7,278 nt of DNA from Candidatus Micrarchaeota archaeon (GTDB lineage Archaea > B1Sed10-29): positions 1 through 7,278 of the forward strand of contig CAZOFO010000023.1 of assembly GCA_964579265.1 (NCBI GenBank), in the 5' to 3' direction. Below, one piece after another: positions 1-6,000 of this stretch (positions are counted from its first letter, which is position 1; each line of letters starts with the position of its first letter). A program made the position numbers.

Positions 1-3000
1 AAGGAAAAGGAGTACCAGTAGGAGTCAAACTACTGGAGGAAAAAGAAGAAGCACCGGAGAAAGTACTCTTCCCAGATCAAGATAGAGCACTTTGCCAGTA
101 CCTCAAGGAAGCTTCGGTATACCAGAAAATCAGAGGAGTAACGGAGGAAAATCTCGGAGGATGCGTGATAGGAGCCAGAGTGCTTGGGTTCAAAGAGCTA
201 CCCGAAGAGATAAAACAAGGGTGGATGGAGGGATTCGGATACTCGGAAGAGAGATACAATGAACTAGTGGAAAAAATGGAAAAATTACCCCTTGGAAAAT
301 ACGAAGCAGCCGTAATAGCTCCATTAAAAGAATTCGAAGAACTCGAAATGGATCCAGAAGCAGTTATAACGATGATAAACACGGCACAGTCCTACTTACT
401 ACTTCAAGGAGTATTCGATAAAACAGGAGAAAAAACAAACGCTACAATGAACGGTCACGCAACGTGCGAAACCATAGCACCAGTACAAAAAGAAGGAAAA
501 ACATGGATATCAGTACCCTGTGGAGGAGCCAGAAGCATATCTAGCGCACAGGACGATGAGATATGGATGGGTATGACACCGGAAAAGCTGGAGAAAGCCC
601 TGGACAGAATGGAAGAAACCAATATAAGGTATCCACCAGCGGTCAACCAGATGATAATAACCCCACCGAACCCAAAGCATCCCCTAACACCGATGATAAC
701 CACGGAAGATTAAGACAGATCCAGAAGGACAAAGGAAAGATTCGGATGAAAAAACAGTTCAGACTACTGGAATCAAAACCAGTAGAGAATTCCTACAGAA
801 AAATGGCAGTGGACGAAGCAGTACTACTAGCAGTGGCCGAAGGAAGATCAATACCAACACTAAGATTCTACAAATGGAATAAGCCAGCAGTAGCCATAGG
901 ATACTTCCAATCAATATCGGAAGAAGTAAATACGGATAAATGTGAAGAAGATGACGTTGAAATATTCAGAAGAATGACAGGAGGAGGAGCAGTGTACAAG
1001 GATCCTGAAGGAGAACTCAACTACAGCATAATAGCGCCAGAAAACCATCCAAAGATCCCAAGAGACATAAAAAGATCATACAAAGAAATAAACAAGTGCG
1101 TGATAAATGGTCTCAAAGAAATAGGGATCAATGCAGAGCACTCGGGCCTCAACGATATAACAATCAATGGCCAGAAAATATCGGGAGCTGCCCAAACAAG
1201 GAAAAAAGGATCAGTAATGCAACACGGAACAATTCTACTGGACTTCAACCCTGATAAAATGATCAAGTACCTGAAGATAGCTCCGGAGAAATCCGAAGAT
1301 AAAGTAACCTCTAACATGAAGGACAGAGTAACAACCCTGAAAAAACAAAAACCCAATCTAGACATGAATACGCTGAAAGAAGCGCTTAAAAAAGGAACAA
1401 AAGAACAATTAAACTGCCAATTTACCAAAGAAGGACTATCGGAATGGGAGAAGCAAAAATCGGATGAACTGTACCGTGAAAAATACTCCACCGAAGAGTG
1501 GAACAATAAAAGAGAATGATCACATGAAAACGATAAAACACAAAGTCCCTGACGGCAAGCTACTTAGAATAAAGCTAGAGGTACAAGAAAATGAAATAAA
1601 AGACATATCGATAACAGGAGACTTCTTCATGTACCCGGAAGAAGGTATTGAATACATAGAAAAAGCTCTAAAAGGCATCAATATAAATGAGGTAGAAGAA
1701 AAAACTAGAGAGGTAATTGCAGAAAGAAACATTGAAATAACTGGATTCTCTCCAAAGGACCTTCAAAAAGCAATAAAACCCGATTTGAACTAAATCTCAC
1801 TATCCCTACTCTATTCTCTCCATTGGCCCAGGACAACTCACTTCCGCGGTCAGGCAGTTAACTAGTTTTTCCTCCATGTCTCTCCTTATTGATTCTCCGA
1901 ATCCGATCCAATAATCTCCTCCGATAAAGGTCGCTGGAACTCCTCCACTAGGTGCTCCGTAACCTTTTAACATTTTCTGAAGCAGTTCTTGATTTTCTCC
2001 TTCGCTTATTTCATGTTTTTTTACTTCTACTGCATCTAATTTTTCCCATTCATCTAGATAAGGTTCCTGGTCATGGCAGTAAGGACACATCTCGCTTTTG
2101 AACCAGTATATCGTCATTTCATTGGTTATTTCTTCTTCATCTAGTTCGGATATCCTTGTGGCTGGTTCGGTTTCTCTTTCCATTACCAGTAGAGAGGCTC
2201 CTATAGCTAGTATGGCTACTATGAATGCCGACACGATCATGGTTTTTTTATCCATTTTTAACACCTCTTTTAATTTATTTTAATATTTGATCCTCATCTA
2301 AATCTTCTTGAGTGTATAAGATTGGTGTTCTGAATCTCTCGTCTTTACTGCTATCTGTATGAAGAGGTATTACTAATTCTAGTTCTTCATTCCAGTCTTC
2401 CCAGTCTATCAACATCAAATCATCTTTGTTTATGTCTTCTAGCTTTTCTTGGAATCTGAAGTTTAGCTCAGGGTATTCTTCCTGGATTTCCCCGTCCAGA
2501 TATGTGTTTACTGTAATTTCATCAAGATCATCTGTAGGTATTACTCCTCCCTGGCTGCTTACAAGAGTGTGTCCCTGTTCAAGTATCTTTCCTTCCCCTT
2601 GATATTCGTTACTACGCGCTTTTCTACCTATCAGAGCTGCATCTATATTCCCTTGGTTTAGTTGTCGCAGTACCTGTCCTGAACTGTCTAATGGGATTGA
2701 TTCGATTTTTTCTTGTTCGAGTGACTGTAGATGAGGTTCCATTGTGGGGCAGTATCCTATTTTATATGTTTCAAGTTGTTCTGATTCTTCTTCAAGACCC
2801 ATTGATCCTGTCACTAGCCCGGTTAATCTTGTTGATCCTCCCATTGCTGTACTCGTAACTAGGTACAACCCTGATATTACAGATACTGTTCCCAATACAT
2901 ATATTAGATATTTTTTGTTCATTTTTACCTGTTTTTTATATCTTTTTCAGCCCATTCTCTTGCTTCTTCCGCGTTCATTAGTTCTTCTTTTTCTTCTGGT

Positions 3001-6000
3001 TTATCTATCTTTATCTTCATTATCCAGTTTTTGTAGGGTTCTTCGTTCAGCTTGGTTGGCTCGTCGAATATATCCTGTTTCACTTCGATTACTTCTCCTG
3101 TGAACGGGCTTGACAGGTGTCCGGACCATTTCACTGCTTCCACCGAGGCGTAGGTATCCCCTTTTTCTATTTTTTCTCCTTCTTCCGGAAGATCTATGAA
3201 CACGAATTGTTTTACTTTGTCCGCTGCTGGTTTTATTATACCTACTTTGGCTTTTTCATCCTCTATATCTATCCATGAATAGTCTTTGTTGTATTTTAGG
3301 TCTTCAGGGAGTTTGTATTCGGTCATTATCTTCACCTTTTTCGAAGTTCCCGTATTTAATGTATAACTTGGCAGTTATAAGTGCTGCGGATATTGCTACC
3401 GCGAACGCTATTAGCGTCCAGCCTATGCTCTCCATTATGGTGTGGTCCACGAGCATTATTAATCCGAGCATCATCATTATTGATCCGCCTACTAGTTTCA
3501 TTATTCTCCCTTTTGTTTTTCCAAAGTCTATTTTCTTCATTCTCCATACTGCGCTGAAATATATTACTAGTTCTACTGCTAGGTATATCAGTACATAGAA
3601 TGCTAGGAAAACTATGTATGTAGAGGTAGTTATTGCTCTTTCAGCTATTATCTGGGACCATACCATTGGTAGTCCTGCTGTGCATGGGAGTTCCACTAGT
3701 GCTACTCCTGCTGCCATTCCAGCGGTAGCTGCAATGGTTGTTATTAAGCCTTCTTTTTTCATGACTCCACGTAGTTTTGCGAATAAACCTGGCTTGTATT
3801 TTTCAGGTATTGAGAAGGATAGTCCTTTTTTGTACCAGAAGAAGTCTTTTATACTCACTATCGCGAAGAATATAGCTATCAAGGCTACCAGTAGACGTAT
3901 CCAGAATAAATGTGCTATGAAGTGAAATATTGTTAGTGCTCCTGCTATGAATAATCCATATATTGATGCTGTAACTATAAGGAAGGTCAGACCTACCAGT
4001 ATTACTTTTTTCCTGCCTGCATACATCACTATTCCTAGTAGGAAAGCCAGTACCCAGAGAGAACAGGGGTTCAATCCGTCTACAAATGCTATGAGGAATG
4101 TGAATATTGCTATTGGATAAGCTTCCGCGCTCACCTCTCCTAGTAAAGGAACATCGTAGGTTTCTCTTTCCTCGAGCTCTTCTCCTGGGAAGGACTCCAT
4201 TGTTTCTTGCGCTAAGGTTATTCCTGATAGTATTACAGTGCTTAGTAATAGTGCTATTACTATTTTTTTCTTTATTTCCATCTGAATCACTTTTTCATTT
4301 GAGTTTATTACTCTGTAATGGTTTAAATGAATTTGTTTCATCCGTTGAAATGGGTTTTATTTCTTCATGTGTCTAAATTTTTTCTCGAGTACTTGGGCAG
4401 CTGTTGCCACGGGATTGATTATTGAGGCTACTGCTGGGTTGTAGCATGTTTCCGATCTGGCTATTTTTTCTATACTTGTTTTTTCTTTGATTGCGAATGT
4501 TAACCAGTTCATTGTCCCTGATATGTCCGATTCTGATGCTGCCTGTGCTCCTATCAACTCTCCTTCTTCACTGGATATTAGTTTAACTGTTATTTCGGAG
4601 TCTTCTGGGTAGTAACTGGAGGTTTTTTCTCCTGTATAGGTTGCTGAGATGCACCCGGTTTCTTCAGCGTGTTCTTCCATTAGCCCGGTGCTCCCTATGC
4701 ATAGTCCCGCTACGTTGCTCACAGTTGTGTTCAGTACTGGTGGGAATTCTTCTTTGGATCCGTTTATGTGTCTGGCTGTGAATTTTCCTTCTCTGAATGC
4801 TGTTGTTCCCAGGGGTGAGATTGTTCTTTCTCCAGTGACTGAGTGTTCGTTTAATGAACAGTCTCCTATAGCGTATATATCTGGGTCTTCTGTTTTTTTC
4901 TTTTTGTTCGTGACTATGGCTTTTTTTGTTTCTAGGTTTGCTTTTTCAGCTAGTTCTGTGTTTGCTCTTACTCCTGCTGCGAGTATAATTGTATCGTAAC
5001 TGTATTCTTCTTTATTTGTTTTTATTTTGTTTTCTTTGATTTCTTGTATCTGTGTTGATTTTTGTATATCTAAATTAGGTCCTTCTAGATGTTCTTCTAT
5101 TTTCTTAGCCATTTTTTCGTCGAATAGGTAGGGTAGTATTTTGTTTTTCCTTTCGAATACTTTTACTTCTTTATTTCTTTTTTTCATTGCTTGTGCTGCT
5201 TCTATTCCGATCATTCCTGCTCCTATGATCGCTACTTCTTCACTGTGTTTCATCTTCTCTTGAATTTTCTCCATGTCTCTGTAGTTGCATAGGTTATGGG
5301 TTTTAATTTCTTCCAGTCCTTTTATCGATGGCTTTATTGGCTTGCTTCCTGTAGCTAATACTAATTTATCGTATTCGAGTTCTCTACCGTTTTTCAGGAT
5401 CACTTTTTTGTTGTCTCTGTCTATTTTCTCTGCTTTTGTTTCCAGAAGTAGTTCTATATTATTTTCTTCGTAGTCCTGTTTTTGCTTGATTAGTATATCT
5501 TTTTTGTCCGGTATTTCCCCTGATAATACGTATGGCATTGCGCATGGTGAGTATTCAGTGTTTTCTCCCTTTTCGATCACTGTTATTTCGTGTTCTTTGT
5601 TGAGTTTTCTGAGTTCGAATGCACAGGTTGTTCCTGCACTTCCTCCTCCTATTATAATTATCTTCATCTTATCCACCTATTTTTATTATCCTGAAATGAT
5701 TTAAATAGGTTTGTTTCATGATTTGAGACAAGGTATAGAGATAAAAGTAGATTCCTTTATACATCCAGAATTGAGGATAAAGAAGGTTAAACACTCTAAA
5801 AGCAATTGAAAACTAAAAAATAATCTGATTTAGAGCTCTATTTTTTCGGTCCTTCCCTTATCATCCACTCTAACATTCTCTATTTTCCCTGCAGTCTTCT
5901 CTTTCTTTTCATTTCCTTTATCTTTACCCTTTTCACCTGGTTCTTTATCGGACATAGTACCAATTATCCTTTATCCAAATTCTTTAATAAATAAGTTTTC

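What a model noticed while it worked through the whole genome (the two positions that open the first line are those of the whole stretch)
746..5667. Orphan lipoyl-GcvH wired to a CcdA-like membrane thiol transporter
The genome has two lipoate ligases and two GcvH lipoyl carriers but no glycine-cleavage P/T/L proteins and no 2-oxoacid dehydrogenase; each GcvH gene sits directly beside an unannotated multi-pass membrane protein with two invariant membrane-embedded cysteines, an exported CxxC thioredoxin-fold protein and (C23) a single-Cys NADH-oxidase/CoA-disulfide-reductase-type flavoprotein. I read this as a new electron relay, NAD(P)H -> flavoprotein -> lipoyl-GcvH -> CcdA/DsbD-like membrane protein -> extracellular thioredoxin-like protein, with lipoyl-GcvH in the place of thioredoxin as cytoplasmic donor. 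New would be a function for orphan GcvH/lipoate in DPANN archaea and a new family and new donor [...]
Evidence so far: Gene order C23: LplA (g00771/772) | Trx-like g00773 (signal anchor, CPYC; Pfam Glutaredoxin E 7e-5, call 51) | g00774 | GcvH g00775 | membrane g00776 (345 aa, no Pfam even at E 0.1, call 51) | flavoprotein g00777 (37% to MJ0649 NADH oxidase; YSPC, call 60). Second copy C28:527-3967 (Trx-like g00813 CPVC, membrane g00815 50% id, GcvH g00816) and C27:165-1211 (LplA). pfam.tsv has no GCV_T, GDC-P, 2-oxoacid_dh or E3_binding row. Of 22 related loci from other genomes: 14 show the Trx-like gene right upstream of the membrane gene and 2 more (L056, L061) carry the CxxC domain in the same frame; in at least 9 the two are one open frame; 7 (Undinarchaeota-, Woesearchaeota-, 'archaeon'- and two bacte [...]
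(Added by a program. Inside this text positions count along the whole contig: contig position 1 is position 1 of the stretch shown here. "Call 12" and the like, gene names such as g00115 and contig names such as C1 are that model's own, and its searches are not shown. The text may have been shortened before it was handed on; [...] marks where a part breaks off. The agent that wrote the report below was given it as the finding of a first reader that could run no searches.)

Follow-up and report, generated by a model that had tools for sequence, protein, structure and literature searches.

The report
Lipoyl-GcvH cassette feeding membrane thiol relay
A tiny archaeon with no detectable ordinary use for lipoic acid keeps its lipoic-acid carrier genes, their ligases and a flavoenzyme beside a two-cysteine membrane protein and surface thioredoxin-like proteins; the pairing recurs in many small-genome archaea and bacteria and likely passes reducing power to the cell surface by an untested route.

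Summary
The gene cluster is real and conserved; the electron relay is inferred, not shown. The window holds flavoprotein > two-cysteine membrane protein > GcvH > binding-protein-like gene > exported CxxC protein, facing DUF169 > LplA > LplB. The genome (91% complete) has no glycine-cleavage P/T or 2-oxoacid E2 match. In 198 genomes of another DPANN order, 31 of 36 non-canonical GcvH matches lie directly behind this membrane gene, 0 of 15 canonical ones do, and no carrier genome has GcvP. The flavoprotein subfamily occurs in 28 of 41 GcvH-linked loci and 0 of 105 unlinked ones. A bacterial sister clade has a small thioredoxin in that place (24 of 29). Limits: most membrane homologues have no GcvH neighbour, the window's own copy nests among those, thioredoxin reductase is retained, the CcdA fold match is within noise (kinship rests on stepping-stone sequence), and flow direction is open. 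C28 and the window join in frame next to a core contig, so mis-binning is unlikely. This scan noted the same system before on many other genomes. My ten paper searches did not turn it up in print. New variant of the DsbD/CcdA kind.

The parts
4357..5667 (-). Single-cysteine CoA-disulfide-reductase/NADH-oxidase-type flavoprotein, 436 aa, catalytic-position Cys42 (5542-5544) in YSPC; predicted lipoyl reductase
   Evidence: Pfam Pyr_redox_2 E 9e-67; NCBIfam CoADR 302 bits, under its 579 cut-off; best PDB match 6pfz E 6e-70; Y39, S40, C42 invariant in 14 of 14 cassette copies
3304..4341 (-). Two-cysteine membrane protein of the DsbD/CcdA superfamily (345 aa, or 325 aa from ATG 4281): N-terminal anchor, acidic outer segment, about seven helices; C73 (4063-4065, DGLNPC) and C200 (3682-3684, ELPC)
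   Evidence: No Pfam match itself; both Cys in 174 of 174 domains; model pLDDT 83; loop charges; profile A2 reaches L028 (E 2.9e-23), which passes Pfam DsbD_TM
2925..3326 (-). Orphan GcvH-like lipoyl carrier, 133 aa, lipoyl-position Lys66 (3129-3131) in EAVKWSG, no cysteine
   Evidence: Pfam GCV_H E 4e-33; K66 invariant in 46 of 46; groups apart from canonical GcvH
2275..2922 (-). Membrane-anchored exported protein with one Cys (GYCPT); lead: periplasmic-binding-protein type fold; accessory, also found beside GcvH-less copies
   Evidence: No Pfam/NCBIfam match; Atlas feature scores 0.86 and TM 0.40-0.48 to binding proteins, a lead only; neighbours in L008, L013, L015, L018, L144, L161, L193
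1806..2255 (-). Signal-anchored exported thioredoxin/glutaredoxin-fold protein, CPYC (2076-2087), GVP loop, C-terminal cysteine pair
   Evidence: Pfam Glutaredoxin E 6.7e-5; the same domain is fused to the membrane protein in 39 of 50 GcvH-linked loci and separate in 7
746..1519 (+). Lipoate-protein ligase, catalytic subunit (LplA)
   Evidence: Pfam LplA-B_cat E 5e-55; NCBIfam LplA_large E 6e-59, under cut-off
1524..1793 (+). Lipoate-protein ligase small subunit (LplB)
   Evidence: NCBIfam LplB 82 bits over the 65 cut-off
3..713 (+). DUF169 gene, 3' part; its start lies at the end of contig C28, directly behind the second GcvH, so this and LplA/LplB close the C28 operon
   Evidence: Pfam DUF169 E 3e-37; exact 55-nt end overlap and in-frame continuation; same order membrane-GcvH-DUF169-LplA-LplB in L011

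Best explanation
These genes likely encode a trans-membrane thiol relay with its own donor: LplA/LplB would attach scavenged lipoate to Lys66 of the orphan GcvH, the flavoprotein would reduce that lipoyl disulfide with NADH through its single cysteine, and dihydrolipoyl-GcvH would then reduce the two membrane cysteines, which are predicted to pass the electrons to the exported CxxC proteins that reduce or reshuffle surface disulfides. Shown: gene order, conserved lysine and cysteines, no other lipoyl-domain protein found in the genome, joint occurrence of GcvH, flavoprotein and ligase with the membrane gene. Inferred: lipoylation, each electron transfer, the direction, and the final targets. 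The cassette is best read as a swappable alternative to a thioredoxin donor, working beside the thioredoxin system and, in other genomes, probably also serving an AhpD-like protein.
For: (1) Orphan carrier: no GcvT, GcvP or E2 match here; no GcvP in 10 of 10 related cassette genomes, no E2 in 5 of 5; GcvP in 0 of 32 genomes with the non-canonical GcvH against 12 of 15 with canonical GcvH. This GcvH has no cysteine, so any redox role needs the lipoyl group; K66 is invariant in 46 of 46. (2) Tight link: GcvH follows the membrane gene in 12 of 12 loci (loci chosen by window-derived patterns). In 198 genomes of the order of G032, 27 of 30 'KWSG' matches (24 by coordinates, 3 behind a membrane gene cut by a contig end) and 4 of 6 divergent matches lie directly behind it, 0 of 15 canonical ones do. 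The divergent 'MKGT' GcvH forms a separate branch paired with a separate membrane branch. (3) One module: the YSxC flavoprotein is in 28 of 41 GcvH-linked loci and 0 of 105 unlinked ones with at least 1.3 kb downstream (13 of 15 vs 0 of 30 at 3 kb); LplA 18 and LipA 15 of 41 vs 1 each of 105. (4) Slot exchange: in the class of G033, 24 of 29 membrane genes have a small signal-less CxxC thioredoxin-like gene directly upstream and none has GcvH; other GcvH-less copies sit by TrxR, glutaredoxin or thioredoxin (L115, L114, L035). (5) Kinship and topology fit DsbD/CcdA: PC motifs in helices 1 and 4, 127 residues apart (E. coli DsbD C163/C285, PMC3322552 passage), basic loops on one face, Trx domain on the other. 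(6) Precedent: lipoylated proteins reduce AhpD, Ohr and OsmC (PMC8945050 passages); lipoamide E0' -0.29 V (PMC6067878) lies below the DsbD C-terminal domain at -241 mV (PMC2665069).
Against: Most membrane homologues have no GcvH next to them: 43 of 71, 64 of 80 metagenome loci. The window's membrane protein nests with GcvH-less relatives at 57-68% identity (L018, L140-L143; SH-aLRT 95) and a clade with the C28/L011/L161 copies is rejected (p-AU 0.001, group named after seeing the tree); the same-family genome G005 (81% complete) has membrane-Trx-binding-protein genes and no GcvH. So no co-evolved GcvH docking site is needed. TrxR-like genes are kept and two glutaredoxins exist here. Three KWSG GcvH are not behind a membrane gene, one of them with CMD and flavoprotein instead (G157), and 9 of 41 linked loci carry a CMD/AhpD-like gene, an alternative client. 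Independent-pair tests are weak (8 pairs; median p 0.06 for the flavoprotein, 0.03 for flavoprotein/LplA/LipA). The fold match to CcdA 5vkv is Z 7.3, rmsd 4.5, 200 aligned, tied with unrelated transporters. No LipA match in this genome, so it would depend on outside lipoate. The exported domains carry CPHC/GVP, compatible with the opposite direction.
Confidence: 0.45

Rival explanations
1. Shared operon, separate wiring: flavoprotein plus lipoyl-GcvH form a cytoplasmic antioxidant unit (feeding AhpD/CMD-like proteins or acting as an oxidant sink, like GcvH-L), while the membrane protein is fed by TrxR and thioredoxin/glutaredoxin as in ordinary CcdA systems.
For: Membrane genes mostly lack GcvH; TrxR-like genes kept in 5 of 5 cassette genomes and here; CMD genes in 9 of 41 linked loci; GcvH-CMD-flavoprotein without a membrane gene in G157; AhpD is reduced by lipoylated proteins (PMC8945050); S. 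aureus GcvH-L protects against oxidants (PMC12440151 abstract).
Against: No CMD match in this genome and none seen in 32 of 41 linked loci; GcvH is almost always the gene directly behind the membrane gene, often overlapping, in two separate GcvH branches; 31 of 32 genomes with non-canonical GcvH have a membrane match and the last has a cut one.
Confidence: 0.25
2. Same chain, run inward: the exported CPHC/CPYC domain oxidises secreted proteins, passes electrons through the membrane cysteines to oxidised lipoyl-GcvH, and the flavoprotein discharges them to O2, peroxide or NAD+. This would be a quinone-free disulfide-forming system.
For: No DsbB and no VKOR match in 31 of 31 phylum genomes, 21 of which have a homologue of the membrane protein. 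[quoted passage not shown] The flavoprotein's closest solved relative is named an NADH oxidase.
Against: All described DsbD/CcdA/ScsB members export electrons (PMC3322552). Lipoamide (-0.29 V) is a poor oxidant for a DsbA-like domain (-0.12 V) unless O2 pulls. DsbC and DsbG are as oxidising (-143, -127 mV) yet work downstream of DsbD, so the motif does not fix direction. GcvH-less and thioredoxin-linked members carry the same motifs.
Confidence: 0.15
3. Sulfur handling: the flavoprotein is a persulfide/polysulfide reductase and lipoyl-GcvH a sulfane carrier (as LbpA in sulfur oxidisers), with the membrane protein and binding-protein-like gene moving sulfur species.
For: CoA-persulfide reductase among close solved relatives (8a56, E 7e-53); YeeE-type Sulf_transp and DsrE/TusA-like genes near some cassettes (L004, L070); LbpA precedent (PMC6067878).
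Against: Such genes were seen in few loci and not in this window; no sHdr genes in the loci read; the flavoprotein lacks the C-terminal rhodanese-length extension of the 550-590 aa relatives (436 aa).
Confidence: 0.1
4. Assembly or binning artefact, or chance neighbourhood.
For: Short contigs; duplicated LplA, GcvH, membrane and Nif3 genes; contigs of runs X8 and X2 continue unlike C27 beyond window 7211, so the C27 ligase copy may belong to a strain variant.
Against: Exact 55-nt overlaps chain C9-C28-window-C27, C9 carrying ribosomal-protein-like genes; tetranucleotide distance within the range of the large contigs; one contig of run X8, not marked as a possible source, spans 488-5009 without a difference; same-genus G003 has the cassette.
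Confidence: 0.03

Closest known systems
CcdA / DsbD / ScsB transmembrane electron transporters (Cho et al. 2012, PMC3322552, passages read; Thermus CcdA, PDB 5vkv)
   Same: Two membrane-embedded cysteines at like positions, an exported thioredoxin-fold partner, superfamily kinship by stepping-stone sequence.
   Different: No Pfam DsbD match for this subfamily itself; an extra helix and N-terminal outer segment or fused Trx domains; described members take electrons from cytoplasmic thioredoxin, here the adjacent candidate donor is a lipoyl carrier; no cytochrome c biogenesis genes in the window.
Mycobacterial Lpd - lipoyl-E2 - AhpD - AhpC chain, and lipoyl-dependent Ohr/OsmC (seen in PMC8945050 and PMC12440151 passages; Bryk 2002 only as cited)
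   Same: NADH, flavoprotein and protein-bound dihydrolipoamide serve as thiol reductant; CMD/AhpD-like genes occur in some cassettes.
   Different: Stand-alone GcvH in place of an E2 subunit, single-cysteine CoADR/Nox-type enzyme in place of Lpd, and a membrane transporter as predicted client.
GcvH-L / LplA2 / SirTM / macrodomain operon (PMC11490716, PMC12440151; abstract and passages)
   Same: Orphan H-like carrier with its own ligase and a flavin oxidoreductase, linked to oxidative stress.
   Different: No sirtuin or macrodomain here; no membrane relay there; S. aureus GcvH-L hands lipoate to E2 subunits, which this genome lacks.
[quoted passage not shown]
   Same: GcvH-like carrier outside glycine cleavage with dedicated lipoylation enzymes.
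   Different: No sHdr or OsmC genes in these loci; the partner is a membrane thiol protein.

Membership tests
DsbD/CcdA superfamily (membrane domain) | Two conserved membrane-embedded cysteines in helices 1 and 4, each after a proline | tested here: met
   C73, C200 in 174 of 174; Pro before the first in 174, before the second in 86 of 174; helix positions from model
DsbD/CcdA superfamily (membrane domain) | Sequence kinship to Pfam DsbD_TM / DsbD_2 | tested here: met
   Indirect only: window protein and 46 of 46 cassette domains have no DsbD match; close homologue P0104 passes DsbD_2 (26.3 bits, cut-off 24.9) and L028, reached by profile A2 at E 2.9e-23, passes DsbD_TM over positions 4-215 of 219; other members match SfLAP instead
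DsbD/CcdA superfamily (membrane domain) | CcdA fold | tested here: inconclusive
   5vkv: Foldseek E 2.0, TM 0.52 by target; Z 7.3, rmsd 4.5, 200 of 224 aligned, tied with unrelated transporters
DsbD/CcdA superfamily (membrane domain) | Exported thioredoxin-fold partner, fused or adjacent | tested here: met
   Window 1806-2255; fused in 39 and separate in 7 of 50 linked loci
DsbD/CcdA superfamily (membrane domain) | Outward electron transfer from cytoplasmic thioredoxin | not testable with these tools
   Needs biochemistry; donor and direction are the open points
Full-length DsbD or ScsB | Alpha domain plus C-terminal gamma thioredoxin domain around an eight-helix core | tested here: not met
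   No C-terminal Trx domain; only two cysteines in the protein; Trx domains are N-terminal or separate
Glycine cleavage system H protein | Lipoyl-lysine in a GCV_H domain | tested here: met
   Pfam GCV_H E 4e-33; K66 invariant
Glycine cleavage system H protein | P and T proteins in the genome | tested here: not met
   No GCV_T or GDC-P match, genome 91% complete; NCBIfam gcvH 108.8 bits under 115.85; separate branch from canonical GcvH
GcvH-L operon | SirTM and zinc macrodomain in the operon | tested here: not met
   All window genes assigned, none is a sirtuin or macrodomain
LbpA / sHdr | sHdr genes with the carrier | tested here: inconclusive
   None in the window or C27/C28; genome not searched for sHdr
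CoA-disulfide reductase / NADH oxidase group | Single active-site cysteine near residue 42, FAD and NAD(P) folds, dimerisation domain | tested here: met
CoA-disulfide reductase (equivalog) | Score over the NCBIfam cut-off and CoA specificity | tested here: not met
   302 vs 579 bits (TIGR03385), 287 vs 458 (PRK09564); substrate not testable here
Dihydrolipoamide dehydrogenase (Lpd) | CxxxxC active-site disulfide, score over cut-off | tested here: not met
   107 vs 409 bits; only C42 invariant at the site
DsbA-type oxidase (exported domain) | Oxidising potential and a DsbB/VKOR partner | tested here: inconclusive
   CPHC/GVP common; no DsbB or VKOR match in 31 genomes; potential not measurable here

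The most novel reading that the evidence does not exclude
Lipoyl-GcvH is the direct redox partner of a DsbD/CcdA-type membrane protein and a single-cysteine flavoprotein is its dedicated lipoyl oxidoreductase: a thioredoxin-independent, quinone-independent wire between NAD(H) and cell-surface disulfides in DPANN archaea, CPR and other small-genome bacteria, interchangeable with a thioredoxin donor in evolution; in its boldest form it runs inward and is how cells without DsbB or VKOR make surface disulfides.
Probability: 0.55. Interest if true: 0.85.

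Novelty: new variant of a known kind. Interest (0 to 1): 0.7.

Why it matters
It would give lipoate a job in cells that have no lipoate-dependent enzyme, show that DsbD/CcdA-type transporters accept a donor that is not a thioredoxin, and define a new kind of lipoyl reductase. 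It also warns that 'GcvH' annotations in DPANN and CPR genomes are often not glycine cleavage. Every step can be tested with small soluble proteins and one membrane protein in E. coli, and the thioredoxin-linked sister clade gives a ready comparison. If the flow is inward it bears on how quinone-free anaerobes form disulfide bonds.

Tried and rejected
Complex prediction of the membrane domain with GcvH (paired 46-row alignments) gave no verdict (score 0.01, mark 0.32); not used as evidence either way. Sequence search of the PDB with the membrane protein or its profile found nothing; direct profile comparison with a CcdA-like gene of L013 was not significant (E 0.18), though a profile of distant members reaches that gene at E 2.4e-7. 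Structure searches did not single out CcdA. No GcvH fusion to the membrane protein or flavoprotein among longer proteins (4 hits; none among 266 membrane homologues); weak evidence. No RNA holder listed. Promoter/terminator scan uninformative for an archaeon. Rejected: remnant of glycine cleavage (no P/T; separate branch); mis-binning of the window; the idea that the cassette makes up for a missing thioredoxin reductase; the idea that the window's membrane protein co-descends with its GcvH. Paper searches: none returned a description of a GcvH-CcdA link; one search listed one genome paper (PMC4600107), seen as listing only. The library lacks most subscription papers; no supplements were read and those of the bioRxiv preprint are closed, so gene-neighbourhood tables there could bear on novelty.

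Full report
Observation. The window is contig C23 of G000 (761 kb, 91% complete). On the minus strand five genes are packed with gaps of 15, -23, 2 and 19 nt: a 436-aa flavoprotein (4357-5667), a membrane protein (3304-4341; 325 aa from ATG 4281), GcvH (2925-3326), a 215-aa anchored protein (2275-2922) and an anchored CPYC thioredoxin-fold protein (1806-2255). They face DUF169 (3-713), LplA (746-1519) and LplB (1524-1793). Second copies lie on C28 and C27. No GCV_T, GDC-P or 2-oxoacid_dh match was found, with controls ringing in 11, 10 and 10 of 14 genomes; the only lipoyl-type domains are the two GcvH; LipA and CMD queries found nothing. A thioredoxin-reductase-like gene (C3) and two glutaredoxins (C2) are present.

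Assembly. Exact 55-nt end overlaps chain C9, C28, the window and C27. The C28 tail reads in frame into the window's DUF169, giving membrane-GcvH-DUF169-LplA-LplB, the order also seen in L011; so two cassettes meet head-on. C9 carries ribosomal-protein-like genes (read by eye), and tetranucleotide distances of C23, C27, C28 are exceeded by 23-44% of same-length windows from the large contigs. One contig of run X8, not marked as a possible source, spans 488-5009 unchanged; contigs of X8 and X2 go on unlike C27 beyond 7211, so the C27 ligase copy may be strain-specific. The runs are soda- and salt-lake metagenomes.

The membrane protein. It has two cysteines, C73 and C200, kept in 174 of 174 distinct domains (216 before removing near-duplicates; L064 left out). 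The family is large: 3,792 clusters at E<=0.001, 756 at 1e-30; some sources name members 'cytochrome c biogenesis protein CcdA/glutaredoxin'; the Atlas lists DsbD_TM/SfLAP clusters at 0.89-0.91. The protein itself has no Pfam match, but P0104 passes DsbD_2 and L028 passes DsbD_TM. The model (pLDDT 83) puts the cysteines in the first and fourth core helices; basic loops 88-93, 143-178 and 246-260 mark the predicted inner face. Structure searches place CcdA 5vkv at Z 7.3, rmsd 4.5, 200 of 224 residues, within the noise of helical bundles. I file it in the DsbD/CcdA superfamily on sequence and motif, not on fold.

The link to GcvH. All 12 loci (archaea and Mollicutes/Bacilli-titled records) have GcvH directly behind the membrane gene, 10 have the flavoprotein; these loci were picked by window-derived patterns. 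A less biased test used 201 genomes of the order of G032, three unpublished ones dropped from my counts. Of 51 GcvH matches, 30 are of the KWSG type (27 directly behind a membrane gene, 3 of these cut by a contig end), 6 are divergent (4 directly behind; one has lost the lysine; one is a fragment), 15 are canonical (0 behind; 12 with GcvT/P, 3 beside LipA/LplA). GcvP was found in 0 of 32 genomes with non-canonical GcvH and 12 of 15 with canonical. The two non-canonical groups and the canonical one form three branches (support for the KWSG branch 0.74). The reverse link is loose: 28 of 71 membrane matches and 16 of 80 metagenome loci (one identical to the window, some duplicates) have GcvH behind them. 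In this phylum 21 of 31 genomes have a membrane homologue and 2 of 31 have GcvH.

A module that comes and goes. Among loci with at least 1.3 kb downstream, the YSxC flavoprotein occurs in 28 of 41 GcvH-linked and 0 of 105 unlinked loci; LplA 18, LipA 15, CMD 9 of 41 against 1, 1, 3 of 105 (the motif filter misses truncated genes). The link changes at least 15 times on the tree of 165 labelled rows; with 8 independent pairs the sign tests are weak (median p 0.06 and 0.03). In the class of G033, 24 of 29 membrane genes have a small CxxC thioredoxin-like gene directly upstream and no GcvH; this is one clade, so one event. The window's membrane protein groups with GcvH-less relatives (L018, L140-L143), whereas its GcvH groups with the C28, L011 and L161 copies. 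The window operon is thus a mosaic: either the cassette was put behind a membrane gene of another branch, or the relatives lost it. Both readings make the donor exchangeable and speak against a tailored docking site.

Flavoprotein and exported partners. The flavoprotein belongs to the single-cysteine CoADR/NADH-oxidase group (best PDB match NoxA-3, E 6e-70), below the CoADR and Lpd cut-offs; C42 is the only invariant cysteine of 14 cassette copies. Reduction of a lipoyl disulfide through a C42 mixed disulfide is my inference from CoADR chemistry (recalled). The exported domain is fused to the membrane protein in 39 of 50 linked loci; CPHC 37, GVP 40 and a C-terminal cysteine pair 62 of 70. No DsbB or VKOR was found in 31 phylum genomes, which keeps the inward direction alive.

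Mechanism. Best reading (0.45): NADH > flavoprotein C42 > lipoyl-K66 of GcvH > C73/C200 > exported CxxC > surface disulfides. Potentials allow it (lipoamide -0.29 V, PMC6067878; DsbD C-terminal domain -241 mV, DsbC -143, DsbG -127, PMC2665069). Rivals: shared operon with separate wiring (0.25), inward oxidative flow (0.15), sulfur handling (0.10), artefact (0.03). TrxR-like genes are kept in 5 of 5 cassette genomes (2 over cut-off), so the cassette works beside thioredoxin, not for want of it.

Known systems and print. DsbD/CcdA/ScsB take electrons from thioredoxin (PMC3322552, passages). Lipoylated proteins reduce AhpD, Ohr and OsmC (PMC8945050, passages). Orphan carriers are known as GcvH-L (PMC11490716 passages; PMC12440151 abstract and passages), LbpA (PMC6067878 passages) and an OsmC-linked GcvH (bioRxiv 10.64898/2026.10.01.755906 passages). 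PMC10332631 has no passage on DPANN or thioredoxin for my terms. Ten searches returned no description of the GcvH-membrane relay link; subscription papers and supplements were not seen. This scan's earlier notes report the same system on many other genomes; I looked them up after my own survey and count them as repeats, not support.

Verdict. Real, conserved, apparently undescribed in the papers searched; works like a CcdA relay with a likely lipoyl donor. New variant of a known kind; interest 0.7. What this window adds: two cassettes head-on in one genome, a membrane gene from a GcvH-less branch inside the cassette, and salvage-only lipoylation.

Noticed in passing
window 7046-7276 (+) and C27 start (L002:1-131): An ORF with an unrelated N-terminus ends in a copy of the DUF169 C-terminus (92% nucleotide identity to window 555-627) and runs by a 55-nt overlap into C27, followed by a second LplA/LplB; contigs of two runs take another path at 7211, so this duplication may be strain-specific.
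   Followed up: partly
window 6072-6920 (-) and C19:2388-3236: Nif3/DUF34 gene present twice in the genome, 81% identical; not seen in other cassette loci.
   Followed up: no
G000:C41 (1737 nt): GC 0.66 and tetranucleotide outlier against a genome at about 0.36; likely contaminant contig.
   Followed up: no
L001:30-374; L046:103-606 and many other loci: A membrane-anchored winged-helix protein (Pfam DUF7343) stands upstream of, or divergent from, the membrane gene in many linked and unlinked loci; candidate regulator.
   Followed up: partly
L001:963-2357: 464-aa lipoprotein-like gene on C28 with four InlB B-repeat domains fused to a C-terminal CPAC thioredoxin-like domain, directly upstream of the second membrane gene.
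   Followed up: no
window 3-713; L011, L061, L161, L167: DUF169 (cysteine-bearing) recurs beside the membrane gene or GcvH; role unknown.
   Followed up: no
L220-L248: Conserved bacterial order: aminotransferase-class-V (cysteine-desulfurase-like, read by eye) gene, small CxxC thioredoxin-like gene, then Trx-fused membrane gene.
   Followed up: partly
L104:3162-3467: Divergent GcvH-like gene with glutamate in place of the lipoyl lysine, among metal-stress-like genes, away from any membrane gene.
   Followed up: no
L006:3088-3828, L013:10097-10837, L151:2109-2852: A short-chain dehydrogenase gene is inserted between GcvH/Trx and the flavoprotein in several cassettes.
   Followed up: no
L004:3542-4893; L070:1-1049: YeeE-type sulfur transporter with DsrE- and TusA-like genes (the latter two read by eye) behind some cassettes.
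   Followed up: no
P0267: A FolD-like protein fused to the C-terminal half of a KWSG-type GcvH, one contig only; may be a chimera.
   Followed up: no
L147:5948-6328: A further GcvH variant (EAMKRVG) overlapping the end of a stand-alone membrane gene, followed by an exported Trx.
   Followed up: no
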